A DNA stretch of 64,000 bases. It comes from Escherichia coli. Its GTDB lineage: Bacteria; Pseudomonadota; Gammaproteobacteria; Enterobacterales; Enterobacteriaceae. The notes under the pieces are model-generated. The model was given only the letters and a program-made list of their open reading frames with translations, did not search any database and was not told where the DNA came from. Of the stretch, positions 8,893 to 27,294 are shown one piece after another (the stretch's first letter is position 1; each line of letters starts with the position of its first letter). The position numbers and the translations under genes were made by a program. The DNA lies in assembly GCF_036507355.1 (NCBI RefSeq), contig NZ_AP027877.1; one strand, 5' to 3'.

Positions 8893-10953
8893 TTAACCTC
8901 GGCTCACCGTTTTCGATTCCATCCAATAAATGACCCGGTTGGATGTGGGCTGATCGCCAACAACTTTGCCATCTGCAGAGATTAGCTTCAGCTCTTTATT
9001 AGCCTCATCACCGAAGTAAATCATACGGTAGCGAAAATAACCGCCCCAGGGTTCACGTCCACCCAGCGGACTTTGCATAAACCAGGCGCGGGAGTCGTGA
9101 ACCTGGTCATCATAGAGGGCCAGTAATTCAGCGCATGGCTGAGTACGCGTTCCCGTTCCCAGTGAATCAATAAAAAATTGTGGATAGAGTCCGTCTCCCA
9201 TAGCCTTAATTTGCTGATATTCTTTTGCTTCATCATCGCCATTAATCAGATACACCGGATATTTAGGAATGACATCCACAAGAATCTGAATGGCTTTCTC
9301 CATGACGCTGCCGTTAATATCGCGCGTCCATCCTTTATAATCGCTCTGAAATTCTCGGGCTGCCTCTCGCAACTGATACTGAGCATTGGTTGGGTCAAGG
9401 ATAGGAATGCCCTGATTACTTTCATCAAGTGTGCCATTCCCTTTCTGCTTGTTCGCCCGCTCTTTTTCAATATTTTCCATTTGTTCTTTACGCGCTTTAG
9501 CCTCTTTATCAAGTCCATCTTTATCCAGCTGTGGCGCCTTAATATAAAAAGGTTGCACAAGAAGGCTGTTATTCGCATAGCGACCGATACGCCAGGCGGT
9601 GATCCAGCCGATCTGATCGCTAATTGCGCTTTCAAGAACCTGGGCAAGTTGATAGGAGTGATAACCTTCCCTCGTATCAATCATTTCTTCTGTACCCTGC
9701 AAGGTGGTGTTCAGCAGCGTTTGTCGCCAGATGTTGAAGCGTTTTGTTAATGAATTAGCAATCGTAAATTCCTTTACACTAGAAGGACTCATAATTCGCA
9801 GAGGCGACACACCTTTTATTAATGGAGTAACAAATTTAGAATAAACAGCAAGTGGTGCTCCTGAATCAAATGCAGCAAGATACATATCATGCAGTGCTAT
9901 CTGAGAAAGAATTTCGCCTGAGTCACCACAGGACTTCCCCTGATCGCGAACGGGATAGCCACCACCGACATCAGAGTGCATCCCCGGATAGATAATTTCC
10001 TCTGCATTTAAAGGATAATTTCCGTCTGGACGACGGATTGAATCCAGCGGAAAGCACAGCCGCTGCTCATGCGCGGCAACGAAGTGGCGGCAGCATTTAA
10101 TCAGGCCGGGAAACTGCCTCTCATCAGGGAGTTGCTGAGTACTATCGGCCCATCCCATATGACCGGCAGCGCCCGGTAAAACATGCGCCGCCCCCACAGA
10201 AGCTACGGTATCCAGCAGCCCCAAAAACTCAATACTGACAGCTAACCCGGCCAGCATCACCTGTTGCTCCTGCGGGCAAGCTAACTGAGTCAACCAGTTA
10301 ACAAAAGTTCGTGCTTCCGCTGCGCCACGGGAAAATCCGTAGATAAACAGCTTTACGTTTAGCAGGCGCGGACTGGCTTGCTCTAACAGTCCCTGTAATT
10401 TTTCCAGGTAGGGGTTAATCACATTGCGACGATTCACTTCACCAGTCATAGGCCAGGGAGCGCGCATAAGAGGAATGTGCTCTTTTGCCACATTATCATC
10501 CAGTCGCTTATGGGAAGGGTCAATGGAATAGCTCAGGGCATCCACGAGGCGTAATAATGCCCAATTAATTCGATCTTCACCACCAGTAGCGAACTCCAGC
10601 CCGCTGTTGCTGTAATCCATTTCACCTATCTTGGGAAATGGTGTGCCTACACCCGGTATATAGTAGTTAAAATATCCCTGTTCTTCTGCGTTCTGATAGG
10701 TCGTATGAAACAGTTTGGCAATATTGGTTGGGTGTCCAGGAGTGTCATTATATTCATTATTATTTGTACCATCAAAAAACAGACTAATATGCAGACTTTG
10801 ATTACACGTAAAGCCAATTCTAAATCCAGCCTGTTTACTACAGTTGGTTTTGTGCTCTTCTGTTTTATTGATTTGTTTTAGGTAGTTCGCGTTTACCTGC
10901 GCTTCAGATAATATTAATCGCCCATCTTCAGGGAACACCGGGGGGCATAACAC
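8893..10953 (-). CDS. T6SS phospholipase effector, Tle-type (DUF2235-like alpha/beta hydrolase)
   Basis: 686-aa ORF; N-terminal LHISLFFDGTNNN motif and GxSxG lipase motif (IYGFSRGAAEA) characteristic of DUF2235/Tle1-like effectors; sits after a vgrG remnant and adaptor-like gene. Confidence 0.7.
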   Translation of the reverse strand: MLCPPVFPEDGRLILSEAQVNANYLKQINKTEEHKTNCSKQAGFRIGFTCNQSLHISLFFDGTNNNEYNDTPGHPTNIAKLFHTTYQNAEEQGYFNYYIPGVGTPFPKIGEMDYSNSGLEFATGGEDRINWALLRLVDALSYSIDPSHKRLDDNVAKEHIPLMRAPWPMTGEVNRRNVINPYLEKLQGLLEQASPRLLNVKLFIYGFSRGAAEARTFVNWLTQLACPQEQQVMLAGLAVSIEFLGLLDTVASVGAAHVLPGAAGHMGWADSTQQLPDERQFPGLIKCCRHFVAAHEQRLCFPLDSIRRPDGNYPLNAEEIIYPGMHSDVGGGYPVRDQGKSCGDSGEILSQIALHDMYLAAFDSGAPLAVYSKFVTPLIKGVSPLRIMSPSSVKEFTIANSLTKRFNIWRQTLLNTTLQGTEEMIDTREGYHSYQLAQVLESAISDQIGWITAWRIGRYANNSLLVQPFYIKAPQLDKDGLDKEAKARKEQMENIEKERANKQKGNGTLDESNQGIPILDPTNAQYQLREAAREFQSDYKGWTRDINGSVMEKAIQILVDVIPKYPVYLINGDDEAKEYQQIKAMGDGLYPQFFIDSLGTGTRTQPCAELLALYDDQVHDSRAWFMQSPLGGREPWGGYFRYRMIYFGDEANKELKLISADGKVVGDQPTSNRVIYWMESKTVSRG

Positions 10954-11298
10954 GGAAAAGCCAGACCACTTATTTTGCTGGACATGTTGCTGGTTCTTTT
11001 ACTTTGAGAGATTTTAATTGATGGGTATTGTTTCTACGACAATAAAGTTTTGACAAAGAAGCAAATAAAATGCATATCTTTCGATTGTCACACATTGGAA
11101 TATCGACAGAGCATTGATGATATTACGCAAAATATATTGCAGCCAAGTGAACTGACATTACGATCGAACACAAATGCAACATGATGGATACTACCATTAC
11201 ATGTCGAGCTTGATTTTCCGTTTATTTCACGATTATCTCTTGATATTAACAGCTACGGACTTTTAAACAGATAAATCTCCCCGTACATCACCACAATA

Positions 11299-12069
11299 TT
11301 ATCCTTCGAAGTCCCGCAAAGCTCCGAAATATTTCGCGTCATTGGCTCTGAAAGCAATATCAAGACAGTGGGCAAAATAGCTTTCCTGACTGAGTTCACT
11401 GACTGCTTTCTCCTTCATCAGGACTTCAGCGTCGCAGATACAGCCCATCAATCCCACCTGTACATCATCCACCCGATTCATCTCCGGGTTGTCAGTAAGC
11501 CTGCGTTCTGGTGAAAAACTTCCTGATTTCCAGTTAATCTCACCATCACGGTCTAACCAGCTCCAGAACAACGCAATATCAGTAAATGTCGCCTGCTGCT
11601 CGTTAGTCAAAACATGTGTGAACAGTAAAGGGAACACCCGATTATCATAGTAACGCAGCAATCCGGTCTGTTCTTCCCACTGAACCTGTGACAATACCTG
11701 AAGATGCCGCCCCAGCAGGTCGAATGTAAGAGGGGATATCAACAAAGTAAGACGCGGCGTATCAGCAAATGACGCCATCAGTTGTGCCAGAAATTTGCGA
11801 TGGCTACTGAGCGCAAAGTACAGGCGTAACACTACAGGGGAATACTCCATCGTCTCAGCTTCAGGCGTTCCTTCAAACAGGGCATACCAGTGAATGGCTG
11901 GCGACAGATGAAGCATATCATTTTGCAAAGGTTGGTCGGTTCCAGCCTGGTCAACAAGCACATCTATGTAATCCAAACCAGCGGCAGAACAGAATGATTC
12001 AGCTTGCTTCAGCCAGATAATATATTTGTCTTGATCGGTAGCGTGTGGCGATACTGTTATCATTGTCAT
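11299..12069 (-). CDS. putative T6SS effector adaptor/chaperone (DUF4123-like, assigned by position)
   Basis: 256-aa ORF starting 6 nt after the vgrG-remnant stop (GGGAGA spacer acts as RBS) and preceding the Tle gene; the vgrG-DUF4123-lipase order is the canonical arrangement; domain not verified. Confidence 0.45.
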   Translation of the reverse strand: MTMITVSPHATDQDKYIIWLKQAESFCSAAGLDYIDVLVDQAGTDQPLQNDMLHLSPAIHWYALFEGTPEAETMEYSPVVLRLYFALSSHRKFLAQLMASFADTPRLTLLISPLTFDLLGRHLQVLSQVQWEEQTGLLRYYDNRVFPLLFTHVLTNEQQATFTDIALFWSWLDRDGEINWKSGSFSPERRLTDNPEMNRVDDVQVGLMGCICDAEVLMKEKAVSELSQESYFAHCLDIAFRANDAKYFGALRDFEG

Positions 12070-12652: not shown

Positions 12653-13339
12653 CTAATATTTGATTAACAAAAAAAACGTATTTTTATCAAATTCATAATT
12701 ATCACATCCCTCTCCACTAAATGATATAGCTCTAAAATCATATTCATTACATGAGTATCTTTTCATCAAAATAGAGAGGAATGTTTCATTAATTGATTTT
12801 AATACAAACCATTTTCTCCTAACAAGTTTGTAGTTTAATGTTTTTATATGATAATTATTTAAACTGGGGAGAAATGAATGCATATCATTCAATTTTACAT
12901 CAAAATATATTTTTTTACCTGCCGTAATTTCCACCCATCGGCTCAAATTCAAATCAAGCTCAAAGGGACAAAAGCCTCCTAGATAGTCTAAGCTAATATT
13001 TCCTGATGTAATCAAGAATTCGTCATCACACAAAGCATCAAATACATCTCCATTTCCTTTTTGGAAGTTCTTTGGATAATATATTCTGGGGAGAAAATAC
13101 GATTTAGTACTACTGTTATAAAAAGTTATAGTGGCTAAAATATTTTCAGCATGTGGCTTAACCACCAATTTAACAACAACATCATTTGTTAATTCATTAC
13201 TTATATTTTCCTCTGGCGCTAAATTATGGCTAAGATAAATAATTGGTTTCCCATTGTCACTTCTTCGTTCAAAACCGAATCTGTATTTTTTTACAAAAAG
13301 ATTCTCATTATCTATTGCAATTGCAATAGATAATGGCAA
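12653..13339 (-). CDS. hypothetical protein, candidate immunity protein for the upstream HExxH protein
   Basis: 228-aa low-GC ORF immediately downstream of the vgrG-coupled gene; start uncertain (the ORF-track start corresponds to a TTG codon); no family recognised. Confidence 0.35.
   Translation of the reverse strand: MPLSIAIAIDNENLFVKKYRFGFERRSDNGKPIIYLSHNLAPEENISNELTNDVVVKLVVKPHAENILATITFYNSSTKSYFLPRIYYPKNFQKGNGDVFDALCDDEFLITSGNISLDYLGGFCPFELDLNLSRWVEITAGKKIYFDVKLNDMHSFLPSLNNYHIKTLNYKLVRRKWFVLKSINETFLSILMKRYSCNEYDFRAISFSGEGCDNYEFDKNTFFLLIKY
13305..13336. repeat. 32-bp perfect palindrome
   Basis: ccattatctattgcaattgcaatagataatgg is its own reverse complement; overlaps the first codons of the 12653..13339 ORF. 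Confidence 0.85.
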
Positions 13340-13512
13340 AAAACAAAGAAAAAAACCATCAGTACAACATAATTTAGATTATAGAAAGCCAACCTCTTCA
13401 TCTTATTTCCCCGTCAACTCATCAAAACATTTTTCTATCTCTTTTATTTTATCCTCTACTTTTTTTGCTAACATATTCTCATCTTGAGCTTCAATATCTT
13501 CATTATTTAATT

Positions 13513-14205
13513 TTATATAAAATATCTTTCAACATTATATGCATTCTCAAATAACTGATCTTTACGCAATGTAACCAGATCATTAGCCACTGAAACATGT
13601 TTCTCATAGCTAACTTCATCCTTATTACTTGTTGCGAACTTATTAATACCCGTATAATCCTGAGTCCACATACCACCTTTTTGATTGTCACCCCAATACC
13701 AAAATATATGGGACATTTCATGGCAAAGTGTACTTACATGAGAGTCTCTACCTGTAACCGACTGTTTTATACCATGTCTGTATTCAAAATGCGCTCCGAT
13801 ATTTACAATGTAAGGAGGATCAAGATGTGGACTAATAAAAGCAGCAAATTCATTGCAGTTCGTATAATCTTTATAGCTTTCGATCGTCAAACCATTTGCA
13901 ATCGTCATTATTCGTCTGATGCCATCCATTATGAATAGTCTCGCTTGCATTCGTTTCCCAGTATCTTCCCCAACCTTTCTGATTTTTATAATGTCCTCGC
14001 CTTTAAGGCCAAAAACTTTAATAAAATCTCGTTGTTGCTCCCCCTCCCATGACATAATATCATCTGCTCTTTTCAATAAAACCATTTTCTGTGCTTTACA
14101 AGCCTTACTCATCATTATTTTAAATTTATTTGTAATTTTTTGCGGTACTACACATACTTGCGACTCGGGTTGTGAAGTCCCACTAGTATTATTATTCCCT
14201 GCCAT
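13513..14205 (-). CDS. putative T6SS cargo effector with HExxH motif (Zn-metallopeptidase-like candidate)
   Basis: 231 aa from MAGNNNTSGT (ORF-track start further upstream is IS-derived read-through); RBS GGAGGGG; start codon overlaps the reconstructed vgrG stop (ATGGCAGGGAATAA); HEMSH motif near the C-terminus; low GC. Confidence 0.45.
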   Translation of the reverse strand: MAGNNNTSGTSQPESQVCVVPQKITNKFKIMMSKACKAQKMVLLKRADDIMSWEGEQQRDFIKVFGLKGEDIIKIRKVGEDTGKRMQARLFIMDGIRRIMTIANGLTIESYKDYTNCNEFAAFISPHLDPPYIVNIGAHFEYRHGIKQSVTGRDSHVSTLCHEMSHIFWYWGDNQKGGMWTQDYTGINKFATSNKDEVSYEKHVSVANDLVTLRKDQLFENAYNVERYFI

Positions 14206-14349
14206 AATGCCCCTCCGGCTCAATATAAAAAGCATCCGAAAATAACAATTGGACTTTAATTTCCTGTGCTGTATCTGTATAAAAGTGAGGTAGCCTGAGT
14301 TTAACGGACACTCCTTCCTGAAATAGAATGGCATCAGAAGGAGCTAATA

Positions 14350-14652
14350 ATGAGCAGAAAAACCCAACGTTACTCTAAAGAGTTCAAAGCCGAAGCTGTC
14401 AGAACGGTTCTTGAAAATCAACTTTCGATCAGTGAAGGCGCTTCCCGATTATCTCTTCCTGAAGGCACTTTAGGACAATGGGTTACCGCCGCCAGAAAAG
14501 GGCTCGGTACTCCTGGTTCCCGCACGGTGGCTGAACTGGAATCTGAAATTCTGCAACTGCGTAAGGCGTTAAATGAAGCTCGCCTTGAGCGAGATATATT
14601 AAAAAAAGCAACAGCGTATTTTGCACAGGAGTCGCTGAAAAATACGCGTTAA
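14350..14652 (+). CDS. IS3-family transposase OrfA (HTH)
   Basis: 100-aa ORF MSRKTQRYSKEFKAEAVRTV... with leucine-zipper-like C-terminus. Confidence 0.85.
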   Translation: MSRKTQRYSKEFKAEAVRTVLENQLSISEGASRLSLPEGTLGQWVTAARKGLGTPGSRTVAELESEILQLRKALNEARLERDILKKATAYFAQESLKNTR

Positions 14653-14687
14653 TCGAACAATGGCGACAACAATTTCCCATTGAAGCG

Positions 14688-15506
14688 ATGTGTCAGGTAT
14701 TTGGTGTATCCAGGAGCGGTTATTACAACTGGGTACAGCATGAACCCTCAGACAGAAAACAAAGTGATGAGCGGCTAAAACTGGAGATTAAGGTGGCACA
14801 TATCCGCACTCGCGAAACATATGGAACCCGGCGGCTCCAGACGGAGCTGGCAGAGAATGGCATCATCGTTGGTCGTGACCGACTGGCACGTCTTCGTAAG
14901 GAGCTAAGGCTACGCTGTAAGCAGAAACGCAAGTTCAGAGCGACTACGAACTCGAACCACAATCTGCCAGTTGCGCCAAATCTGCTGAACCAGACGTTCG
15001 CTCCTACAGCACCAAATCAGGTCTGGGTGGCGGACCTGACGTATGTTGCCACACAGGAGGGATGGTTGTACCTCGCTGGCATCAAAGATGTTTATACGTG
15101 CGAAATTGTCGGCTACGCCATGGGAGAGCGCATGACAAAAGAGCTGACAGGTAAAGCCCTGTTTATGGCGCTCAGGAGCCAGCGCCCACCTGCCGGGCTA
15201 ATCCACCACTCTGATCGAGGTTCACAGTACTGCGCATACGATTACCGGGTCATACAGGAGCAGTTTGGTCTGAAAACATCAATGTCGCGTAAAGGTAACT
15301 GTTACGACAACGCTCCGATGGAAAGCTTCTGGGGAACGCTGAAAAATGAGAGCCTGAGCCACTATCGTTTTAATAACCGGGATGAAGCCATCTCAGTAAT
15401 ACGGGAATACATTGAGATTTTCTACAATCGTCAGCGTCGTCACTCTCGTCTGGGGAATATCTCCCCGGCAGCCTTCAGGGAAAAATATCATCAGATGGCT
15501 GCTTAA
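14688..15506 (+). CDS. IS3-family transposase OrfB (DDE integrase core; probably made as an OrfAB frameshift fusion)
   Basis: 272-aa ORF with DLTYV...HHSDRGSQY...SRKGNCYDNAPMESFW DDE signature. Confidence 0.85.
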   Translation: MCQVFGVSRSGYYNWVQHEPSDRKQSDERLKLEIKVAHIRTRETYGTRRLQTELAENGIIVGRDRLARLRKELRLRCKQKRKFRATTNSNHNLPVAPNLLNQTFAPTAPNQVWVADLTYVATQEGWLYLAGIKDVYTCEIVGYAMGERMTKELTGKALFMALRSQRPPAGLIHHSDRGSQYCAYDYRVIQEQFGLKTSMSRKGNCYDNAPMESFWGTLKNESLSHYRFNNRDEAISVIREYIEIFYNRQRRHSRLGNISPAAFREKYHQMAA

Positions 15507-15530
15507 AAAAAGAATAAATGGTAGTGTCCG

Positions 15531-17237
15531 CTATTGCCAGTACACCTCAAATATTTCTGTATATCCCTCTCTGTCTGTTTCACCACGCGTCTGTGTGCCA
15601 TCCTCAAAAAAGGCAATATACTGCGTCTCTGAATACGGTATCCCGTCATCGTCCGTAAAATGGAACTGGAGGGTATATTTTTCAGGATCATCTTCATCGT
15701 CACCGCCATCACCTCCTCCGTCACTCCCTGCGGGATTGCCACTATCCTCTCCGGAGTCATCACTGCCATCATCACTGCTCTCATCCTCCGGAGCCTCCAG
15801 CACCGCCGGCTGCATCGTCCCCACCGGTGTCCCCGCACTGCCCCCACCGTTCAGGTTTATCTTCGGCCCGGCAATATCCACTCCGCCCGGCTGAATGACG
15901 ATAAACGAGCCACCCACCTTCAGGCTTATCCGGCTGCTGCTCTCCAGCACGATATCCCCGTCCACTTTTATCCCCAGCGCGCCACTCACCTTCTCCGCCA
16001 GGTCCCCCTTCACCACCAGGCTGTGTTTCCCCTCCACCAGACTGATATGGTTCCCCGTCGTCTTATGCTCCTGCTTCCCTTCCACCGTCACTTTACGGTC
16101 GTTTCTGACGTACAGACCGTCATCGTGACTCACGCTCACCGTCCGGTCATTCGTCACCTTCAGAGTCTGGTCATTACGTACCGTGATACGCCGGTCGTTC
16201 GCCACCGTGATACTCTGGTCGTGGCCCCCCTCTTTTTTTGTACCGACCTGAACCGTCTGACCCTTCACCACCGTTATCTTCTGGTCGTTACCGATGGTTT
16301 CCGTATGGTCATGTTTTACATCCGTTGTCCGGTCGTTGAGCACCTCCGTATCCATGTTCTTCTGCGCATGGATATACACCTGCTCATTACTGGTGGCGTC
16401 TTCAAACCGCAGCTCGTTAAATCCGCTTCCTTTATAGGTTTTTGACCGTATCGTCATCTGCGTCTTCGTTCCCGGCAGGTCGCCCGGGGAGCGGTTGTCC
16501 TCATGGTACGTCCGCCCCATGATTATCGGCTGGTCCGGGTCTCCGTTCAGAAAATCAACAATCACCTCCTGGCCCACCCGCGGTATCGCCAGATTACCGA
16601 ACCCCGGCCCCGCCCACGCCTGCGATACCCGCACCCAGCATGAACTCGCCTCCGTCATCCCGTGATAACGGTCCCAGTGGAACTTCACCCGTACCCGGCC
16701 ATGTTCATCGCAGAAGATTTCCTCTCCCGCAGGCCCGGTGACAATGGCACTCTGCGGCCCGTCCACCTTCGGTTTGCTTTGCAGCCGTGGACGCCACGTC
16801 CGGTCCGCCGGTATCACCTCTAACTGATTTCCCAGCGTGGTTCCTCTCCCTTGGCTGCCGTGCAGCGCCTGCGGCTGGCTTCCTGACAGTATGCTCTGTA
16901 CCACCTGCCATTCACGGTTCAGCATCTTCTGCGGATGCCCCGTCAGCGTAAACCGCGTTCCCGGCCACAGCCTCGGCGAATTACTCTGCCCTGTGGCCTT
17001 TTCCGCATCACTGCGCAGGCTCTCCATCTGGTACAGCGTGAAATCCTTGCCGTGCTGCTCATCCTTGAACCTTCCCGGATAATCAAATATTTCATACTGC
17101 GCCAGCTGTCCGTTCAGGTTCTCACCCTGCTGCTCATACATCCCCGGCCAGTCCGGCACCTTAAACGTGTAATCCTGGCTCTGCACCGACGACGGGCGGA
17201 CATGCGCCTCATACGCTACCGCCCGGGTTTCCGGCAT
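15531..17237 (-). pseudogene. vgrG: vgrG (T6SS spike) lacking the N-terminal ~220 aa and interrupted 33 codons before its stop by IS600-like copy 1
   Basis: 568-aa ORF with gp5-like OB-fold motif (GPAGEEIFCDEHGRVRVKFHWDRY) only ~165 aa from its start, repeated VxxNDR beta-helix segments, DUF2345-like region, acidic Gly/Asp linker and a short C-terminal domain; the last residues EVYWQ are encoded by the IS terminus. Confidence 0.8.
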
Positions 17238-17338: not shown

Positions 17339-17857
17339 TTATGCTTCCAGCGGTGCACGCCAGTCATCGGCACCAGAAGTACCGGATTTGATGTGCTCCC
17401 ACTCAACCTTACGGTATGCCAGTGATACTGCGAGCAATTGCGTAAACTCACGCTGTGCAGGGTCCTGGCAGTGCGGCATGTGCAGGTTCATGTCCACAAT
17501 CGTCGCGTCAGTAAGACGTGTGGTGAAGTAGTGCTCCTGCTTGCCTTCAACTGAAGTACGCCACCAGTGCAGCTCCACTTTCGGCAGCATTTCACCGGAG
17601 GCCAGCGCGTTGTACAGCAGCGGAACGGCTTTGTTCAGCGCCACGGTGAAAATGAACGGTTTGTGCGCGCGCTGCCCGGAAGGTTGACCAGACTGTGGAT
17701 CGGTTGGAACAGTAACGTTATGCAGAAACTCCTGCACCAGCATTTCATCTTCGTGTCCCTGCACGTAGATATTGCCGACAGAATCTGCGGTGAAAGCACC
17801 GGCAGTGATGTTCCCCTGGGTCTGACCTGTAATTGAAATGTAACATGGGGTTGGCAT
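17339..17857 (-). CDS. hcp: Hcp (T6SS inner tube protein, TssD)
   Basis: 172-aa ORF MPTPCYISITGQTQGNITAGAFTADSVGNIYVQGHEDE..., typical Hcp1-family sequence and size. Confidence 0.9.
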   Translation of the reverse strand: MPTPCYISITGQTQGNITAGAFTADSVGNIYVQGHEDEMLVQEFLHNVTVPTDPQSGQPSGQRAHKPFIFTVALNKAVPLLYNALASGEMLPKVELHWWRTSVEGKQEHYFTTRLTDATIVDMNLHMPHCQDPAQREFTQLLAVSLAYRKVEWEHIKSGTSGADDWRAPLEA

Positions 17858-18559
17858 TTATGAACTCCTTGTGAAATTATCAACTGCTGTTTTACGAACA
17901 ACCCGTCGTTAATCCCCGACGGGTTAGAGTGTGATGCGGCTCACATCAGGAACCACACCCTTTTCTTTATTCGAGTTACAGGCACACGTAATTAGCACCT
18001 ACTGAAAAACTCTTTTATGGTGTTTAAATATATTTTTAGTCAATTTCAGAACACGGTCACATAAGCTAAAAATATATCAACTTCAACAGCAGAATTATCC
18101 ATAACGTATCTTCCCCCCCATAAAAATCCACAGCCGCGTCAAAAACAAATTATTACGACACTTACTCCGCCATCGTTCCAGCACGCAATTAAGATATTCC
18201 TTAAAGGAATTCCTTATGATGTATTGCCAGCAATTAATTAATTGATAAAACCATACATAAAACTTATTAATCAATTTAATAAATGCATATAAATCAATAT
18301 ATTATTGTATTTGATTGACCGTAAAATCATATTCATCAAGTCTATAAATACCAAAATCTATTTCACTATAATATATTAGCAAGGAAGAATGCATCTCTTT
18401 CTAAAATATAAATAGTTCTTTTAATATTTTATTTCATGAGTAGAATACTGATCACAACAGAAGGAAGGTTACATTATCTAACTGCCACTGAAACGGTATC
18501 TTCGGTATTTTTATGCAGTACGAAAATGCTGTGCTCATGGTCTGAACGGGAACATTTTT
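17858..18559. promoter_or_regulatory. AT-rich divergent intergenic region between hcp and the tssB stub (probable T6SS promoter region)
   Basis: about 700 bp of very AT-rich non-coding sequence between divergently oriented hcp and tssB starts. Confidence 0.35.
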
Positions 18560-18718
18560 ATGAGCAAAATGAACAACAATGGCGGCAGTGTCGCGCCGAA
18601 AGAAAGAATCAGCGTTCGGTATACACCAAAAGTTGATGGGGTGGCTGCTGATATCGAATTGCCGCTGAATTTATTGATCACCGGCAATCTGAAAGGGAAA
18701 CCAGATAACACGCCGTGA
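18560..18718 (+). pseudogene. tssB: tssB (T6SS sheath small subunit) 5' stub, 52 codons, truncated by an IS3-family element
   Basis: MSKMNNNGGSVAPKERISVRYTPKVDGVAADIELPLNLLITGNLKGKPDNTP matches the conserved TssB/VipA N-terminus; the stop codon TGA is the first three bases of the IS inverted repeat. Confidence 0.65.
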
Positions 18719-18772
18719 ATCGCCACGGGTTTAACAGACACCTCAGAGTCATTTAAGATGGCTTAAAGAGAG

Positions 18773-19057
18773 GTGCCCATGAGCGGTAAGCGTTATCCCG
18801 AAGAGTTTAAAATTGAAGCAGTCAAACAGGTTGTTGATCGCGGTTATTCTGTTGCCAGCGTTGCAACACGTCTCGATATCACCACCCACAGCCTTTACGC
18901 CTGGATAAAGAAGTACGGTCCGGATTCTTCCGCTAATAAAGAACAGTCAGATGCTCAGGCCGAGATCCGCCGTCTCCAGAAAGAGCTGAAGCGGGTTACC
19001 GACGAACGGGACATATTAAAAAAAGCCGCGGCGTACTTCGCAAAGCTGTCCGACTGA
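18773..19057 (+). CDS. IS3-family transposase OrfA
   Basis: 94-aa ORF MPMSGKRYPEEFKIEAVKQVVDRGYSVASVATRL... (HTH plus leucine zipper). Confidence 0.85.
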   Translation: MPMSGKRYPEEFKIEAVKQVVDRGYSVASVATRLDITTHSLYAWIKKYGPDSSANKEQSDAQAEIRRLQKELKRVTDERDILKKAAAYFAKLSD

Positions 19058-19113
19058 GGTACGCCTTTATCCGTGACAACACCTGTTGCTGGCCTGTTCG
19101 CCTGCTCTGTCGG

Positions 19114-19926
19114 GTGCTGGATGTTCATCCCAGTGGTTTTTACGCCTGGCTTCAGCAGCCGCATTCACAACGCCATCAGGCAGACCTGAGGCTGACAGGG
19201 CAGATTAAACAGTTCTGGCTGGAATCGGGATGCGTCTATGGTTATCGCAAAATCCATCTGGATCTGCGGGACAGCGGGCAACAGTGCGGAGTGAACAGAG
19301 TCTGGCGACTGATGAAACGTGTCGGGATAAAGGCTCAGGTCGGATACCGGAGCCCGCGGGCACGTAAAGGCGAGGCCAGTATCGTGTCGCCCAACAGGCT
19401 CCAGCGACAGTTCAATCCGGATGCTCCGGATAAGCGTTGGGTAACGGACATAACCTACATCAGGACCCACGAAGGCTGGCTGTATCTTGCCGTGGTTGTT
19501 GATCTGTTCTCACGCAAAATTATCGGCTGGTCCATGCAATCCCGGATGACAAAGGACATTGTCCTGAACGCACTGCTGATGGCTGTATGGCGCCGTAATC
19601 CCCAAAAACAGGTGCTGGTTCATTCGGATCAGGGCAGTCAGTACACAAGCCATGAGTGGCAGTCGTTCCTGAAATCACACGGCCTGGATGGCAGCATGAG
19701 CCGTCGCGGTAACTGCCATGATAATGCGGTTGCAGAAAGCTTTTTCCAGTTGTTGAAACGCGAACGGATAAAGAAAAAGATCTACGGAACGCGGGAAGAA
19801 GCCCGCAGCGATATTTTTGATTACATCGAAATGTTTTATAACAGTAAGCGTCGGCATGGTTCCAGCGATCAGATGTCACCGACAGAATATGAAAACCAGT
19901 ATTATCAACGGCTCGGAAGTGTCTAG
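19114..19926 (+). CDS. IS3-family transposase OrfB (DDE)
   Basis: 270-aa ORF with DITYIRTHEGWLYLAVVVDLFSRK...HSDQGSQYTS...SRRGNCHDNAVAESFF DDE signature. Confidence 0.85.
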   Translation: MLDVHPSGFYAWLQQPHSQRHQADLRLTGQIKQFWLESGCVYGYRKIHLDLRDSGQQCGVNRVWRLMKRVGIKAQVGYRSPRARKGEASIVSPNRLQRQFNPDAPDKRWVTDITYIRTHEGWLYLAVVVDLFSRKIIGWSMQSRMTKDIVLNALLMAVWRRNPQKQVLVHSDQGSQYTSHEWQSFLKSHGLDGSMSRRGNCHDNAVAESFFQLLKRERIKKKIYGTREEARSDIFDYIEMFYNSKRRHGSSDQMSPTEYENQYYQRLGSV

Positions 19927-20198
19927 ATTATCCGTGGCGATTCAGTTGTCAAGCAGATAGAAGCCATCTAGGTCAGGGGGAATGACTAGGAATTACTCCC
20001 CAAGGGTAGCGTACGTCTACACACATCAAATTACCTCCCGGACAGGGACATAGTAGAAATATTGTGTATTGCAATTATGGATACTGTCATCGTCTAGGTA
20101 GTTCGCCAGCTTTATAGTGTTTTACTGAATTTGGCCACCTGAGCAGAGGTGATATGGGAGAGTGATTTTCATACGCTCTCGTATGGTTTCCGGCCTGA

Positions 20199-20426
20199 AT
20201 GCAGTGTTCATCACGCGATCCGCACGGTGAAATTACAGCTCACAGACTGTGGGGAAACCCGGGGCGCTGGGTGATTGAAGACGACCTGTCCAGTTACTTC
20301 GACACCGTACACCATCGACTGCTGATGAAAGCCGTACGCCGCAGGATCAGTGACGCACGTTTTATGGCCCTCCTGTGGAAAACCATCAAGGCGGGCACAT
20401 CGAGGTCGGTCTCTTTCGGGCGGTAA
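20199..20426 (+). pseudogene. reverse transcriptase fragment (group II intron/retron-type RT, as in K-12 CP4-6 ykfC)
   Basis: translation contains IEDDLSSYFDTVHHRLLMKAVRRRISDARFMALLWKTIKAG, the RT fingers/palm motif context; only about 75 codons. Confidence 0.55.
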
Positions 20427-20439
20427 GTGACGCCGCGCC

Positions 20440-20684
20440 AGCTGACGTTGCCACGAATATTCGCCAATACGCTGCCAGACTTCGGTATGAAAGCGCAGAA
20501 TCAATGACCGGTAATCGGCCATGCTTTCGCGGTACGGCAGCGTCAACGTAAAGCAGAACACCACGAGTCGTGGGTAATGGTCAACGGCCTGTTGCAGAAA
20601 GGCTCGTGTATTTGTCGTGTCAGTCGAATTGCCGGAGACGATGGAGGGAGAATAAGGATTCATAACGGCGCTCTCAATGAACAC
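20440..20684 (-). pseudogene. prophage-remnant protein fragment (possibly inovirus Gp2-like)
   Basis: N-terminal part of minus-strand ORF 20211..20684 (MNPYSPSIVSGNSTDTTNTRAFLQQAVDHYPRL...); the rest of that ORF overlaps the RT fragment on the other strand and is probably read-through. Confidence 0.3.
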
Positions 20685-20888
20685 TGGTGTGATGGACAGG
20701 AGTGTGATGTTGCAGGTGTGCTGCTCATCATCGATCCCATATCATTACGTTCGCTCACTAAGACGGAGTGCCTTTCGTCATTTAACCTGTCACAATCCAA
20801 ATAATTTCAGACAGATATTATCTCCGTGAATCCCCCGCCTCCTTAACCGGAGCGCGGGGATTTTTCTTTTTCACGTTGAGAACTCTGT

Positions 20889-21773
20889 ATGACTAAACCT
20901 CACGGCCTTCAGGCCCTTGAACAACCGCTGGCGTCGCTTCCCGATGCGCTTCGCCAGCTTATTCTTGAACGTATTCAGAATCTCACCCACTATGAGCCGG
21001 TGATTGGTATCATGGGCAAAAGCGGTGCCGGTAAGTCTTCGCTCTGTAACGAACTCTTCCGGGGTGAGGTCTCCCCCGTCAGTGATGTGAACGCCTGTAC
21101 CCGTGAAGTGCTGCGCTTCCGGCTGCGCAGCGGGCGTCACAGTCTGGTGATTGTTGATTTACCGGGTGTGGGAGAAAACGGGCAACGGGACCATGAATAC
21201 CGTGCCCTGTACCGGCGTATGCTGCCGGAACTGGACCTGGTTCTGTGGGTCATTAAGTCCGATGACCGGGCGCTGTCGGTGGACGAGCAGTTCTGGCGCG
21301 GTGTGATGCAGCCTTACCAGCAGCAGGTGGTGTTCGTGATTAACCAGGCCGACAAAATAGAACCCAGCCATGAATGGGATACCCGTTCTGGTACTCCCTC
21401 AGCACAGCAACAGAAAAATCTTCAGGAAAAGCAGGTTGCCATTACCACGATGTTTAAGCCACATCACCCGGTCTGCGTGGTATCCGCATGTACCGGATGG
21501 GGCGTGGAGGATATGGTAGCAACCATGATGCGCTGTCTGCCGGACCGCGCCACCAGCCCAGTAGCGACACAGTTGCACGGGAGGCTCTGCACGGAGCCGG
21601 TAAAGTCGCAGGCCCGTGACGGCTTCGGTGAGGCGGTGGGGCGGTGGGGCGGGTGTTCGATACGGCAGAATCATCGTTATTCCTGCCTGCGCCGCTGAAG
21701 ACGGTGATACGTACCGTGCGTGATGCTGTGGTGTCTGTAGCCCGCGCGGTCTGGGACTGGATCTTCTTCTGAA
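20889..21773 (+). pseudogene. YeeP/YkfA/YfjP-like prophage GTPase with a probable 3' frameshift
   Basis: Walker A GKSGAGKSS, G3 DLPG and NQADK G4 motifs; the ORF ends at 21698 but a plausible conserved C-terminus (...TVIRTVRDAVVSVARAVWDWIFF) continues in another frame to about 21773. Confidence 0.65.
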
Positions 21774-22032
21774 TGAGTAAAAGGTCATCAGGACTGTAGT
21801 GAATGACTCTGTTTATTCACCGCCTGGTAGATGATTATTTCCAGGCAGACATAACCTGTCCTGACCAGCAAAAGATACCACCAGTCATAAGCGCGTCACC
21901 ACTGCCGACGTTGCATCCACACAGTCTTCTTGCACCAGGCGTTTCGCTACGTATGACGGACACAACCTGTCAGTCCCATCCTTTACAGTAATACCTTCTT
22001 TATTAATCAATTACCCAACACGGAGATAATAC

Positions 22033-22736
22033 ATGTCTCAGGCTGAGCGTCGTTATGACCGCCTGTCTGTCCGGCTTTCTCTAATTATCAGCCGTCTGCT
22101 CGCGGGTGAAACGCTGAATATGCGCAAACTGGCCGCTGAGTTTGGCATCTCGGAGCGTACCCTACATCGTGATTTCCGCGAGCGTCTGATTTATCTCGAC
22201 CTCGAATATCAGGATGGCTGCTGCCGTCTGCTGACCGGAGGCCGTCAGGAGATTCGGGAGGAGGCCGCAATGCAGTTTGCCCGTCAGTCAGGCACTGGCG
22301 CGTTGTTTCCTGATATGGACCACCATCTGGTCAATTCATTGCTGAGCAGCAAGGACTCCTCGCCATGTCTTATCTGGCATCCGTAACGTCTTCCCGCCCA
22401 GGCATCTTCACACGACTGGTCAGGGCGGTATCAGAAAACAGGAAGGTAACCCTGCTGGCTGACGGATGCCGTTGCGACAACCTTGCCCCCTACCGACTGA
22501 TTTTCAGCACCGGTGGGTGGTTTCTGGTGGGGGAACACCTTGCCCGGATAACCGTTTTTGCACTGCACACAGTTCACTCCGTGACGTTTCACGCGGAAAC
22601 CTTCACACCAGACGGACATTTCACCCGCATTCTGTCACACCCGGATTTTTTACAGGCGTTACCTCATTTTCATGTTTTTCATTCACTACTCGCTGACGGC
22701 AGTTACGGGCAGCTTACCCATAAGGAACAGGCATGA
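22033..22736 (+). pseudogene. YfjR-like HTH/WYL transcriptional regulator, split into two overlapping ORFs (22033..22386 and 22365..22736)
   Basis: N-terminal HTH ([21 protein letters not shown]) in ORF 1; ORF 2 in a different frame carries a WYL-like segment (GGWFLVGEH); combined length about 235 aa fits a single regulator. Confidence 0.45.
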
Positions 22737-23368
22737 AATTACTCACCTCGGCGGCGCTGGCCGCCAGCCTCTGCATTACCTCTGTGACCCCGGCCATCGC
22801 AGAAAATATCGTGGGTTCAGTTAAGGCCTGGCAGTACATGCAGGCTGATGGCTGGAAATCCGCTGATGGATACGATGATAACCGCATGCATAACGAGTTA
22901 TACCAGGCGGTCGTTCTTGATAATTATCCCTGGACGAATCACTTTCTGCTTCGTAGCAGAGGCGGTAGTTCGCTTTATCTGGCAGACAAGAAAGCTAAAA
23001 CTGTCAAATACATCGATATAAAACCTCGCGACGAGTATCCGTTACATCTTCAGGTTGTTTATCGGGGAATTGATGACGGGAGTGGCTGTTATTTCGCCAT
23101 TGTAGATGACCGAATGGCAAACTACTGGACGATTGTTGAAGATCGTCTTCTCTATCAGGACCCACCTGTTGAAGACGTCGATGCGAAAGCAGCTGAGCTT
23201 AGAAAACAACTCACGCCGGAAGTCGTGATGATGGTGAAGGATAATTGTATTGACAAACAGCAGCAGGCTGCACTGGCAGCTAAGCGTTCTGAAAAAGATC
23301 GAGAGTTGCAACAGTGGGTGGCGAAACAGAGCCTGGCGGAATTATGTCGTCGTACCGGCAACTGCTGA
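22733..23368 (+). CDS. hypothetical secreted protein (CP4-like remnant)
   Basis: 211-aa ORF with signal peptide MKLLTSAALAASLCITSVTPAIA; start overlaps the preceding stop. Confidence 0.5.
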   Translation: MKLLTSAALAASLCITSVTPAIAENIVGSVKAWQYMQADGWKSADGYDDNRMHNELYQAVVLDNYPWTNHFLLRSRGGSSLYLADKKAKTVKYIDIKPRDEYPLHLQVVYRGIDDGSGCYFAIVDDRMANYWTIVEDRLLYQDPPVEDVDAKAAELRKQLTPEVVMMVKDNCIDKQQQAALAAKRSEKDRELQQWVAKQSLAELCRRTGNC

Positions 23369-23403
23369 CCCGCTGAAAACAACCATAACAGGGAGTTTTT
23401 AAC

Positions 23404-23856
23404 ATGAATATATTTACTACGCGTCTGACGACCTCTCTGGTGGTCATCGGCACTCTGCTGCTCTCCGGCTGCGACAGCAAGGAAGATGCAGGCGTGAAGA
23501 CGATTGCCCGATTTAAGGACCTGACTCCGCCGCCCTTCAGCGACGTGGTGGCGCATAAATCCGATATCGAGCAGGAATGGGTAAAAAAGGATGCCTTCGG
23601 CACACCGCTATACACGGTAATGAAAACTCGCCAGTCGCCGGAAGGCTGTGAGTCCGGCAGTTATTACTACATTGCTGATATGCAGCAGAAAACGGTGCAG
23701 CCGCTGATAGCCGCCCTGTGTCTCGCGGACAATATTACTCTGAGCTTCCGGATCGAGACCGACAGCTACACGGGTGAGAAATCGGTGGTGTATTCGCACG
23801 ATGGCAAGGAAATGGGGAAACTCTTGCTGCCGGATAACCAGGAGAACCATCCATGA
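23404..23856 (+). CDS. hypothetical lipoprotein (YfjS-like position)
   Basis: 150-aa ORF with lipobox LLLSGC. Confidence 0.5.
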   Translation: MNIFTTRLTTSLVVIGTLLLSGCDSKEDAGVKTIARFKDLTPPPFSDVVAHKSDIEQEWVKKDAFGTPLYTVMKTRQSPEGCESGSYYYIADMQQKTVQPLIAALCLADNITLSFRIETDSYTGEKSVVYSHDGKEMGKLLLPDNQENHP

Positions 23857-24305
23857 AGAAGCTGAAAGGTGTTATCTCTGCTGCAGTCCTGAGTCTGTAT
23901 TTGCTGACACCGGCCCATGCTGATGGCGGTTTTCAGGGTGCCATCAAAGGCGGCATTCCGGCCTACACCCGCGATGTAAAACACAACAACCCCTTCTGGT
24001 GTAACCAGTACAAACTGGTGAGAAAGATGTGTGAAGTGGTTTCGCAATCGGAAAATGGGCGCGTTGCCATTGTCAGAATGGTCCCCACCGACTGGAAATG
24101 CCCCAACGGTATCTGGGGTGTGGTTGACCGTTCTAATGGTGACGCCATGGAGTTGGTCCCGACGGCGAAAATGTCCCTGGAGCAGTACTGCAGCAAGGCA
24201 TTCAGTGCAGGTTTTGTCAAACCACAGAACAGGAAATCACTGGCCGACGTCGTGATGTACTACAACGGCAAGCCAGTCGGTTCTTTCGAATACATTGAAG
24301 AGTGA
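23853..24305 (+). CDS. hypothetical secreted protein (YfjT-like position)
   Basis: 150-aa ORF with signal peptide MKKLKGVISAAVLSLYLLTPAHA; overlaps the previous stop (operon-like). Confidence 0.5.
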   Translation: MKKLKGVISAAVLSLYLLTPAHADGGFQGAIKGGIPAYTRDVKHNNPFWCNQYKLVRKMCEVVSQSENGRVAIVRMVPTDWKCPNGIWGVVDRSNGDAMELVPTAKMSLEQYCSKAFSAGFVKPQNRKSLADVVMYYNGKPVGSFEYIEE

Positions 24306-24367
24306 ACTCCCCGCCTCAGGGAGAAGCTTCCCGTATTCATTTAACACATTAAAAATAAAGGAAAAGA

Positions 24368-24910
24368 ATGAACTGGCATTATGAGAAAAATGGCGTGCGT
24401 CACGACAATGTGACCGAAGCCGACATAACCGAACGTATTCAGCGCGGGGAGCTGAATGCCTCAACGCTGGTATGGCAACAGGGCATGACGGAATGGCAGC
24501 CGCTGTCAGCCACGCCGCTGGCAGATGTCCTGAAACAATGTGCGGTTCCCCCCGCGCTGCCCGGCAATCGTATCCCCGGAAGCATGGTCTGGACGCTGGC
24601 CTTTGCGCCCCTGATTGGGTATGCCCTGGAGATGTGGACGGCCGGGCTGAGCGGAATGGAATTTGAAGAGGCGTATGCCGCCGTGACGGAGGGGCAATAC
24701 TGGTTTATCACACTGATACTGAATATTGCGCTGGGGTATCTGGATGAACGACGGCTCCGTAAATCCGGCGTTGATACCGCCGCCTTTGGCTGGCTGGCCT
24801 GGCTGGTTCCGTTTTATCTGTGGCGTCGGGCAAAAGCCCTCGGACAGAAACCGGCTTACTTCTGGGTCTGGCTGGTCACGCTGACAGTGACAGTCCTGGG
24901 CGCAGGATAA
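24368..24910 (+). CDS. hypothetical membrane protein with N-terminal GYF-like/DUF4339-like segment
   Basis: 180-aa ORF; NGVRHDNVTEADITERIQRGELNASTLVWQQGMTEWQPL followed by hydrophobic helices. Confidence 0.45.
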   Translation: MNWHYEKNGVRHDNVTEADITERIQRGELNASTLVWQQGMTEWQPLSATPLADVLKQCAVPPALPGNRIPGSMVWTLAFAPLIGYALEMWTAGLSGMEFEEAYAAVTEGQYWFITLILNIALGYLDERRLRKSGVDTAAFGWLAWLVPFYLWRRAKALGQKPAYFWVWLVTLTVTVLGAG

Positions 24911-24969
24911 CCGGCATCAGCGCTGTCCGGCCCGGATGAGCAGGCAAGTTAAATCAAGGAACAATATCA

Positions 24970-25800
24970 ATGAACAACATGCTGAAAAGTGTTATTTCCG
25001 CTGCGACCCTGAGTCTGTGTCTGCTGACACCCGCTCATGCAGAAGAGCAACGTTATATCAGTATTCCCAGCGTCTTCGGGGAAGGTAAGCACGTGTCCCG
25101 TTCAGACCATTACAGCTACATACCGACCATTACCCTGCTGGAGAACCTGCAGCGTGAAGGATTCCAGCCGTTCTTTGCCTGCCAGACCCGCGTCAGGGAC
25201 CAGAGCCGCCGTGAGCATACGAAACATATGCTGCGCCTGCGTCGCTCCGGGCAGATAACCGGTCAGCAGGTGCCGGAAATTATCCTGCTCAATTCGCATG
25301 ACGGTTCGTCCAGTTACCAGATGTTGCCGGGGTATTTCCGTGCCATCTGTACCAACGGTCTCGTCTGCGGGCAGTCATTTGGCGAGGTGCGAGTGCCACA
25401 CCGGGGAAATGTCGTGGAGAAAGTGATTGAAGGCGCTTACGAAGTCCTCGGTGTGTTCGACCGGGTGGAAGAGAAGCGTGATGCGATGCAGTCGCTTTTA
25501 CTCCCGCCACCGGCACAACAGGCTTTTGCCAGAGCCGCGCTGACGTACCGCTTCGGGGAAGAGCACCAGCCGGTGACGGAAGCGCAGATACTGACACCCC
25601 GCCGCTATGAAGACCGTCAGGATGACCTGTGGTCAGTTTTTAATCGGTGCCAGGAGAACCTGCTCAAAGGGGGGCTGCCAGGACGTACTGCCAAAGGCAA
25701 ACGCAGCCATACCCGCGCGGTGAAAGGCATCGACGGCGACGTTAAGCTCAACCGGGCACTCTGGGTGATGGCGGAAAAACTGCAGCAGGCGCTGAGCTGA
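24970..25800 (+). CDS. DUF932-like prophage protein carrying an N-terminal signal peptide
   Basis: 276-aa ORF; signal peptide MNNMLKSVISAATLSLCLLTPAHA homologous to that of ORF 23853; body contains YIPTITLLENLQREGFQPFFACQTR; family assignment from memory. Confidence 0.45.
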   Translation: MNNMLKSVISAATLSLCLLTPAHAEEQRYISIPSVFGEGKHVSRSDHYSYIPTITLLENLQREGFQPFFACQTRVRDQSRREHTKHMLRLRRSGQITGQQVPEIILLNSHDGSSSYQMLPGYFRAICTNGLVCGQSFGEVRVPHRGNVVEKVIEGAYEVLGVFDRVEEKRDAMQSLLLPPPAQQAFARAALTYRFGEEHQPVTEAQILTPRRYEDRQDDLWSVFNRCQENLLKGGLPGRTAKGKRSHTRAVKGIDGDVKLNRALWVMAEKLQQALS

Positions 25801-26538: not shown

Positions 26539-26549
26539 GGTCAGCCGCT

Positions 26550-27029: not shown

Positions 27030-27049
27030 CACAACAGGAGAATAACCGA

Positions 27050-27271: not shown

Positions 27272-27294
27272 CACACGTTTAAGGAAGGCTAAAA

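What the first reader, a model, noticed from the sequence alone, without database searches (positions are those of the whole stretch)
17339..18718. T6SS core reduced to hcp plus a 52-codon tssB stub, with an IS3-family element at a deletion junction
hcp and a tssB N-terminus are divergently arranged around a 700-bp AT-rich promoter region. tssB stops after 52 codons with a TGA supplied by the IS inverted repeat. The IS (18716..19943) has no target-site duplication (flanks ccg versus gtt), which argues it sits at an IS-mediated deletion that removed the remaining T6SS core genes and fused the stub to the CP4-like remnant. Unless a full T6SS exists elsewhere in the genome, hcp and the effectors are orphaned.
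Basis: partly seen in the sequence, partly recalled or inferred. Interest (0 to 1): 0.55.

Follow-up and report, generated by a model that had tools for sequence, protein, structure and literature searches.

The report
IS-truncated remnant of aspV T6SS island
This is the decayed leftover of a well-known E. coli type VI secretion gene cluster, whose machinery genes are missing at a junction occupied by an insertion sequence; it is ordinary genome decay, not a new system.

Summary
tssB (18560-18718) keeps only codons 1-52 of 167.

This IS makes 3-bp target duplications at simple insertions elsewhere. Here its flanks are ccg and gtt. The left flank is tssB nt 156. The right flank lies inside the CP4-like island beside aspV, at a site that is uninterrupted in other E. 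coli.

No other T6SS core gene is in the 64-kb window. At least about 19.4 kb (rest of tssB to hcp2) plus the integrase-proximal part of the island is missing. An IS-associated deletion is well supported.

- vgrG lacks its first 215 codons (738-bp deletion) and carries IS600 near its 3' end.
- The M35 effector and its downstream gene are frameshifted.
- A DUF3304 gene is missing.

Whether another T6SS exists elsewhere in the genome cannot be tested from the window.

One oddity: 18 E. coli genomes carry the same IS at the same nucleotide in the opposite orientation.

The parts
8896..10953 (-). tle1, a T6SS phospholipase effector; intact 686-aa ORF
   Evidence: 99.4% identical over 686/686 aa to the L016 protein that RefSeq annotates as a Tle1-like effector.
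10969..10996 (.). 28-bp repeat marking the absence of a DUF3304 gene that L016 has between tla1 and tle1
   Evidence: L016 17098-17608 has no counterpart in the window. The same 28-bp sequence flanks that segment in L016. tblastn with DUF3304 finds nothing in the window.
11302..12063 (-). tla1 (DUF4123), the Tle1 chaperone; intact
   Evidence: NF053803 at 221.5 bits against a cutoff of 200. 98.4% identical over 254/254 aa to L016.
12656..13402 (-). gene downstream of M35 (249 aa in L016), frameshifted near codon 16
   Evidence: T8 in L016 is T7 in the window, at about 13349-13355. tblastn aligns only residues 17-249.
13513..14205 (-). M35 metallopeptidase effector gene, frameshifted at about codon 229 of 267
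   Evidence: T5 in L016 is T4 in the window, at about 13519-13523. tblastn splits into two frames.
14195..14284 (-). last 30 codons of vgrG, cut off from the rest of the gene by IS600
   Evidence: tblastn places VgrG residues 770-799 here at 100% identity.
14286..15549 (+). IS600 (1,264 bp), a simple insertion in the 3' end of vgrG
   Evidence: The flanks are contiguous in L016. The duplicated target is AA(T/G), with one base differing between the copies. It is 99.8% identical to the second IS600 at 50348-51611.
15550..17212 (-). vgrG body, codons about 207-770 of 799; the N-terminal part is missing
   Evidence: tblastn aligns VgrG residues 207-770. TIGR03361 is matched only at profile positions 206-513.
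17212..17213 (.). scar of a 738-bp deletion that removed vgrG codons 1-215 and 93 bp upstream
   Evidence: Window 17213 aligns to L016 22588 and window 17212 to L016 23327. The same gap appears against L001. Only 2-4 bp of microhomology lies at the ends.
17339..17857 (-). hcp (tssD), intact
   Evidence: TIGR03344 at 209 bits. 519/519 nt identical to L001 and L016.
17858..18559 (.). 702-bp AT-rich divergent intergenic region
   Evidence: GC 23-38%. 8 of 702 positions differ from L001.
18560..18718 (+). tssB stub: codons 1-52 of 167, with a TGA stop supplied by the IS inverted repeat
   Evidence: 100% identical to TssB residues 1-52. TIGR03358 scores only 39.6 bits and covers profile positions 3-44 of 160.
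18716..19944 (+). 1,229-bp IS3-family insertion sequence, apparently intact, at the deletion junction with no target-site duplication
   Evidence: Inverted repeats. OrfB matches NF033516 at 338 bits against a cutoff of 160. It differs at one base from copies that RefSeq annotates as 'IS3 family transposase, programmed frameshift'. Flanks are ccg and gtt.
19945..29740 (+). aspV-proximal remainder of a CP4-like island: group II intron RT fragment at about 20149-20440, GTPase, YfjS/YafY, DUF932, antirestriction, RadC, YeeU/CbtA and others; no integrase
   Evidence: Collinear with L013 at 99.3-99.6% and with L002 at 98.2-99.0%. Gene names are taken from the RefSeq annotation of those loci. No integrase hit in the window.
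29863..29939 (-). tRNA-Asp (aspV), the anchor of the island
   Evidence: ARAGORN. Synteny with dnaQ-rnhA and the rrnH/aspU region.

Best explanation
This is a non-functional remnant of the aspV-linked E. coli type VI secretion island, the 'third T6SS' of EAEC 042.

The inferred ancestor carried, in order: yafV, effector modules, vgrG and hcp on one strand; tssB-C-E-F-G-tagH-J-K-L-H-vasI-A-M-vasL-hcp2 on the other; then a CP4-like island; then aspV.

A 1,229-bp IS3-family element now joins tssB nt 156 directly to a site inside the CP4-like island. Everything between is gone: at least about 19.4 kb of T6SS core genes, plus the integrase-proximal part of the island. The total could be about 40 kb if the island resembled that of strain 2017.09.02CC.

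The most likely route has two steps. One copy of the IS sat at the island GTT site and a second copy, in the same orientation, sat in tssB. Recombination between them deleted the interval and left one IS with mismatched flanks (ccg and gtt). A one-step transposase-mediated adjacent deletion gives the same product and cannot be told apart here.

Without sheath, baseplate, membrane complex and ClpV, this locus cannot build a T6SS. Later or parallel decay hit vgrG, the M35 effector, the gene downstream of M35, and a DUF3304 gene.

Shown: the junction anatomy, the mapping of both flanks, and the absence of the core genes from the window. Inferred: the ancestral gene order, the two-step mechanism, and the loss of function.
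For: - Left flank: identical to tssB nt 1-156 of intact clusters. The intact cluster runs tssB to hcp2 and then reaches aspV.
- Right flank: 100% identical to the island next to aspV in 33 E. coli genomes. The empty site is seen in L002 and in diverged homologues that span the junction without a break.
- Orientation: both flanks are in native orientation.
- Core genes: none of the 13 other cluster genes is in the window.
- IS behaviour: it makes 3-bp target duplications at simple insertions (AAG, TAC) but has ccg and gtt here.
- Further decay: vgrG 5' deletion, IS600, frameshifts and DUF3304 loss.
- Source record: the 52-aa stub and the 269-aa GTPase match neighbouring GenBank proteins BED23697.1 and BED23701.1 (locus tags VEE46_34650 and VEE46_34690) on one 4.64-Mb E. 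coli replicon.
- Literature: the aspV T6SS is described in PMC2808357. T6SS decay through IS insertions and frameshifts in Shigella sonnei, and 'only remnants' in S. flexneri, are in PMC10924462.
Against: - No genome with the presumed precursor was found. None of 5,426 complete E. coli genomes has this IS in tssB or has the junction IRR|gtt. The two-step route is therefore inferred.
- The 18 E. coli genomes that do carry this IS at the island site have it in the opposite orientation. Homologous recombination cannot turn that arrangement into the window's junction.
- hcp and the stub show no sequence decay at all. This fits a recent event but says nothing about selection.
- The rest of the genome was not available, so relocation of the core genes or a second T6SS is not excluded.
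Confidence: 0.88

Rival explanations
1. Assembly collapse or misjoin across a repeated IS. In this reading the real chromosome has two direct copies of the IS, one in tssB and one in the island, with the T6SS core between them. The assembler merged the two copies.
For: The IS is repetitive: E. coli genomes hold up to 21 places matching it. Several 1-bp homopolymer frameshifts in the window (M35, the gene downstream of it, the GTPase) could be long-read sequencing errors, which would hint at imperfect consensus quality.
Against: The stub and the GTPase sit four locus tags apart on a single 4.64-Mb replicon in GenBank. A 20-40 kb segment is much harder to drop than a 1.2-kb repeat in a closed assembly. 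Both flanks are exactly where a deletion would leave them.
Confidence: 0.04
2. Rearrangement without loss. The IS mediated a translocation, for example excision of the interval as a circle and re-integration at another IS copy. The T6SS core would then survive elsewhere, lacking only an intact tssB.
For: Mismatched IS flanks are also the signature of IS-IS rearrangements in general. The rest of the genome was not examined.
Against: An inversion between two IS copies would leave the inverted interval next to the IS. Instead the island continues in native orientation to aspV. Re-integration of an excised circle is rare. Multiple further lesions in the same locus fit relaxed selection after loss.
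Confidence: 0.04
3. The locus is broken, but hcp, tle1 and tla1 remain in use by a second complete T6SS encoded elsewhere in the genome. They would then not be truly orphaned.
For: E. coli strains can carry up to three T6SS clusters (PMC2808357). hcp, tle1 and tla1 are intact ORFs, and the hcp-side intergenic region is retained.
Against: The cognate vgrG is truncated at both ends. From general knowledge of Tle1 delivery in EAEC, Tle1 is loaded onto its VgrG through Tla1; this was not tested here. A DUF3304 gene is missing and the M35 module is frameshifted. Zero substitutions in hcp gives no evidence of selection.
Confidence: 0.1

Closest known systems
The aspV-linked T6SS island of E. coli: EAEC 042 Ec042-0210-0226, and the intact clusters in strains PS10-3 and ECNB21-M121
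   Same: It sits at the same chromosomal site, between yafV and aspV. hcp and the first 156 nt of tssB are identical, and the hcp-tssB segment is 99.1-99.5% identical. The effector modules (tle1/tla1, M35) are the same.
   Different: All genes from tssB codon 53 to hcp2 are absent. vgrG is truncated at both ends. A CP4-like island remnant lies between the scar and aspV.
T6SS decay in Shigella: IS insertion in tssM and frameshifts in S. sonnei, and 'only remnants' in S. flexneri (PMC10924462)
   Same: A T6SS with the same divergent hcp/tssB layout is inactivated by IS elements and frameshifts in an IS-rich E. coli or Shigella background. IS600 occurs twice in this window.
   Different: The source is labelled E. 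coli, and its T6SS allele differs from the S. sonnei/EHEC one, judged by comparing the published primer sequences with the window. Here the core is deleted outright rather than hit by point lesions.
Deletions adjacent to an IS3-family element, produced by transposition followed by IS-IS recombination; for example the IS150-mediated rbs deletions in E. coli B (Cooper et al. 2001, cited from memory and not checked here)
   Same: A single IS3-family copy is left at the junction with intact ends and no target-site duplication. The neighbouring genes are lost.
   Different: The precursor with two copies was not observed. The only relatives with the IS at the island site have it in the opposite orientation.

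Membership tests
Functional type VI secretion system gene cluster | Complete set of 13 core components, TssA to TssM | tested here: not met
   tblastn with the 17 proteins of the intact cluster in L001 finds only Hcp (172/172), TssB residues 1-52 and VgrG from residue 207 onward. TssC, E, F, G, J, K, L, H, A and M give no hit in the 64 kb.
Hcp / TssD | Full-length match to the TIGR03344 profile above its cutoff | tested here: met
   209.3 bits against a cutoff of 58.9, covering profile positions 1-166 of 167. 100% identical to Hcp of intact clusters.
TssB / VipA sheath small subunit | Full-length protein of about 160 aa that reaches the TIGR03358 cutoff | tested here: not met
   39.6 bits against a cutoff of 97.25, and only profile positions 3-44 of 160 are covered. 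It is a true N-terminal fragment: 52/52 identical to TssB residues 1-52.
VgrG / TssI | Complete N-terminal gp27-like and gp5-like core | tested here: not met
   TIGR03361 is matched only at profile positions 206-513. The first 215 codons are deleted and the last 30 are separated by IS600.
IS3 family insertion sequence | DDE transposase that matches the IS3-family model | tested here: met
   OrfB matches NF033516 at 337.8 bits against a cutoff of 160. OrfA matches the N-terminal part of the same model.
IS3 family insertion sequence | orfA and orfB joined by a programmed -1 frameshift | tested here: met
   An A7G run (ttaaaaaaag) lies at about 19016-19025, at the end of orfA. Copies that differ at one base are annotated 'programmed frameshift' in RefSeq. 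Frameshifting itself was not tested.
IS3 family insertion sequence | Terminal inverted repeats ending 5'-TG...CA-3', and a 3-bp target duplication on insertion | tested here: met
   The inverted repeats are TGAATCGCCACGG...CCGTGGCGATTCA. 3-bp duplications AAG and TAC flank two simple insertions elsewhere. This copy has none.
IS-associated deletion junction | Intact IS ends, no target duplication, flanks that map to separated collinear positions in relatives, and the intervening genes absent | tested here: met
CP4-type integrative island | Characteristic gene set (YfjP-like GTPase, DUF932, antirestriction, RadC, YeeU/CbtA) together with an integrase | tested here: inconclusive
   The gene set is present, by collinearity with the annotated loci L002 and L013. 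The integrase that lies at the far end in L015 has no hit in the window. This is a remnant.

The most novel reading that the evidence does not exclude
The island site (caccc|GTT|gtcaagc) holds the same IS in the window and in 18 E. coli genomes, at exactly the same phosphodiester bond but in opposite orientations. This could reflect a real mechanistic feature of this IS3-family element. It might insert next to the end of a resident copy, or it might flip in place through its 13-bp perfect terminal repeats. Either would make the site a recurrent breakpoint for erosion of the aspV island.
Probability: 0.1. Interest if true: 0.3.

Novelty: already known. Interest (0 to 1): 0.1.

Why it matters
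It matters little beyond correct annotation.

- hcp, tle1 and tla1 at this locus should not be read as evidence of a working T6SS in this strain.
- The tssB stub and both vgrG pieces should be annotated as pseudogene fragments.
- The locus is a clear, fully mapped example of how IS elements erode the aspV island in IS-rich E. coli and Shigella-like lineages.
- The shared insertion site with opposite IS orientation is a small puzzle for people who study IS3-family target choice.

Tried and rejected
1. Stub look-up artefact. I first took the 17 metagenome and SRA contigs that 'encode' the exact 52-aa stub as independent sightings of the junction. I also used one of them (L003, with a full vgrG N-terminus) to order the lesions in time. 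This was wrong. Their tails read ...acgccgtt, which is intact tssB, and the contigs simply end there. An exact-sequence look-up picks out partial genes that happen to stop after codon 52. The only real record of the stub is BED23697.1.

2. Exact look-ups. Look-ups of the 568-aa vgrG fragment and the 269-aa GTPase in the contig index found nothing.

3. Target resemblance to the IS ends. I tested whether the two target sites resemble the IS inverted repeats, which would suggest IR-like targeting. The best local alignment scores 7, against a shuffle mean of 8.0. There is no resemblance.

4. Realignment of IS ends. The ends are fixed by five other copies. Shifting them by one base gives no duplication either.

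5. Inversion model. Recombination between inverted copies keeps each flank attached to the same IS end, so it cannot turn the L013-type junction (IRL|gtt) into the window's (IRR|gtt). This model is rejected for the orientation puzzle.

6. Source strain. A literature search for the locus-tag prefix VEE46 found nothing relevant.

7. Promoter scan. The scan of the intergenic region was not above the shuffle expectation.

Full report
**What is in the sequence**

- The ORF at 17339-17857 (minus strand) encodes a 172-aa Hcp. It matches TIGR03344 at 209 bits against a cutoff of 58.9.
- After a 702-bp intergenic region, an ORF of 52 codons starts on the plus strand at 18560 and ends with TGA at 18716-18718. 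The intergenic GC content falls to 23-38%, against about 55% in the flanking genes.
- That TGA is the first three bases of a 1,229-bp element at 18716-19944. The element has 38-nt imperfect terminal inverted repeats whose outer 13 bp are perfect: TGAATCGCCACGG...CCGTGGCGATTCA.
- OrfB of the element matches the IS3-family transposase model NF033516 at 338 bits against a cutoff of 160. OrfA matches the N-terminal part of the same model.
- An A7G run lies at the end of orfA.
- Full-length copies at 98.6-99.9% identity occur in many unrelated E. coli chromosomes and plasmids. RefSeq annotates them 'IS3 family transposase, programmed frameshift'.

**The target-site duplication**

I read the flanks of five other copies of this IS. 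Two interrupt a single gene each, an AraC-type regulator and an RHS gene. Those two have perfect 3-bp duplications, AAG and TAC. The other three have mismatched flanks. So the element makes 3-bp duplications when it simply inserts. In the window the flanks are ccg and gtt. Because the other copies fix the ends, realignment cannot rescue a duplication.

**Where the two flanks belong**

*Left flank*
- The segment 17240-18715 matches 581 of 5,426 complete E. coli genomes. In 551 of them the match covers at least 80% of the segment. It is annotated there as Hcp and tssB.
- Strain PS10-3 (L001) has this order: vgrG and hcp on one strand; then tssB, tssC, tssE, tssF, tssG, tagH, tssJ, tssK, icmH/tssL, tssH, vasI, tssA, tssM, vasL and a second hcp on the other; then one small gene; then tRNA-Asp and dnaQ.
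- This is the aspV-linked T6SS described as the third T6SS of EAEC 042 (PMC2808357). Strain 042 itself matches at 99.1%.
- The stub is 156/156 nt identical to the start of the 504-nt tssB. hcp is 519/519 identical. All eight differences from L001 fall in the intergenic region.
- The intact gene continues ccg|ttggacg. The window continues ccg|TGAATCGCC.

*Right flank*
- The sequence from 19945 onward is 100% identical over 946 bp to 18 of the 33 E. coli genomes that cover most of it, and at least 99.9% identical in the other listed genomes. There it lies in an island of CP4 type directly beside aspV. The island carries a group II intron RT fragment, a GTPase, YfjS/YafY, DUF932, an antirestriction gene, RadC, YeeU/CbtA and DUF4942.
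- In strain 2017.09.02CC the site is uninterrupted...attatcaccc|gttgtcaagc....
- Homologues at 93% and 85% identity run across this point without a break, so this is the empty site.

*Relation of the two flanks*
- Both flanks keep their native orientation relative to fadE/yafV on one side and aspV/dnaQ/rrnH on the other.
- tblastn with all 17 proteins of the intact cluster finds only Hcp, TssB residues 1-52 and VgrG from residue 207 onward in the whole 64 kb.

**Size of the loss**

From tssB nt 157 to the end of the second hcp is about 19.4 kb in PS10-3. The island's integrase-proximal part is missing too. In strain 2017.09.02CC about 19.7 kb separates the integrase from the GTT site. No integrase is in the window. 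The loss is therefore at least about 19.4 kb, and could be about 40 kb. I found no comparator that has both this T6SS allele and this island, so the ancestral interval is inferred.

I compared the window with the closest comparator, strain ECNB21-M121 (L016).
- A 738-bp deletion at window 17212/17213 removes vgrG codons 1-215 and 93 bp upstream. The 568-codon ORF at 15531-17237 begins at a fortuitous ATG.
- IS600 (14286-15549) is a simple insertion about 30 codons from the end of vgrG, and so upstream of the M35 gene.
- The M35 peptidase gene has a 1-bp deletion in a T5 run. The gene downstream of it has a 1-bp deletion in a T8 run.
- A DUF3304 gene that L016 has between tla1 and tle1 is missing. 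A 28-bp direct repeat flanks it in L016.
- tle1 (686 aa), tla1 (NF053803 above cutoff) and hcp remain intact ORFs.
- The homopolymer frameshifts, and a similar one in the island GTPase, could be sequencing errors.

**Source**

- No complete E. coli genome in the collection has either junction.
- The 52-aa stub and the 269-aa GTPase are GenBank proteins BED23697.1 (VEE46_34650) and BED23701.1 (VEE46_34690). Both lie on one 4,643,937-bp replicon labelled E. coli.
- Two IS600 copies plus the IS3-family element in 64 kb point to an IS-rich lineage.
- The rest of the genome was not available. Whether another T6SS exists cannot be answered here. E. coli strains can carry up to three.

**Mechanism**

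The product is one intact IS with mismatched flanks and a lost interval between collinear flanks. Two routes give this product.
- Two steps: a copy at the island GTT site and a copy in tssB, in the same orientation, recombine.
- One step: a transposase-mediated adjacent deletion.

The right flank begins with gtt, the triplet a simple insertion at the empty site would duplicate. This fits both routes. I favour the two-step route by analogy with IS150-mediated rbs deletions (from memory, not checked here). No precursor genome was found.

**An unexplained detail**

- Eighteen E. coli genomes, for example FDAARGOS_1277 (L013), carry the first 314 bp of this same IS, 100% identical in L013. It abuts the same nucleotide (|gttgtcaagc) but in the opposite orientation: there IRL touches gtt, whereas in the window IRR does.
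- All eighteen copies are truncated at the same point. From reading the sequence, the truncating elements look like IS30 and IS1 fragments.
- The window's island is closer to these genomes (99.55%) than to genomes with the empty site (99.0%).
- Recombination between IS copies never changes which IS end touches a flank. So the two junctions need either two transposition events at one bond, or a flip of the IS within its 13-bp perfect terminal repeats.
- Neither target site resembles the IS ends.

I leave this open.

**A false lead**

Contigs that seemed to carry the stub end in intact tssB sequence. They are an artefact of exact-sequence look-up, and I draw no conclusion from them.

**Comparison with what is known, and verdict**

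All the parts belong to known families: Hcp, TssB, VgrG, Tle1/Tla1, IS3, IS600 and a CP4-like island. The aspV T6SS island is well described. T6SS inactivation by IS elements and frameshifts is documented in Shigella sonnei, with 'only remnants' in S. flexneri (PMC10924462).

It is ordinary reductive decay at a known island. Interest is low.

Noticed in passing
window 19932-19950; L013 14700-15013: Eighteen complete E. coli genomes carry the first 314 bp of the same IS, abutting exactly the same nucleotide (|gttgtcaagc) but in the opposite orientation. All are truncated at the same point, apparently by IS30 and IS1 fragments. IS-IS recombination cannot interconvert the two junctions.
   Followed up: partly
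window 17212/17213: A 738-bp deletion relative to L001 and L016 removes vgrG codons 1-215 and 93 bp of upstream sequence. Only 2-4 bp of microhomology lies at the ends. The 568-aa ORF at 15531-17237 starts at a fortuitous ATG.
   Followed up: yes
window 14286-15549 and 50348-51611: There are two IS600 copies, 99.8% identical. One is in the 3' end of vgrG; its duplicated target AA(T/G) differs at one base. The other is inside yaeF, with a CTT duplication.
   Followed up: partly
window about 13349-13355, about 13519-13523 and about 21660: 1-bp indels frameshift three genes. The M35 peptidase gene (T5 to T4) and the gene downstream of it (T8 to T7) are homopolymer deletions. The island GTPase is 269 aa instead of 291; its indel was not located. 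These may be real decay or long-read sequencing errors.
   Followed up: partly
window 10969-10996: A DUF3304 gene lies between tla1 and tle1 in L016 and is absent here. The missing 511 bp is flanked by a 28-bp direct repeat in L016. DUF3304 proteins are, from memory, Tle1 immunity proteins; this was not checked.
   Followed up: partly
window 20149-20440: A frameshifted fragment of a group II intron reverse transcriptase/maturase lies about 200 bp right of the IS. The same fragment is present in the E. coli islands that lack the IS.
   Followed up: no
window 19945-29740: The CP4-like island next to aspV has no integrase in the window. In strain 2017.09.02CC the integrase sits at the end far from the tRNA, next to a different T6SS type.
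   Followed up: partly
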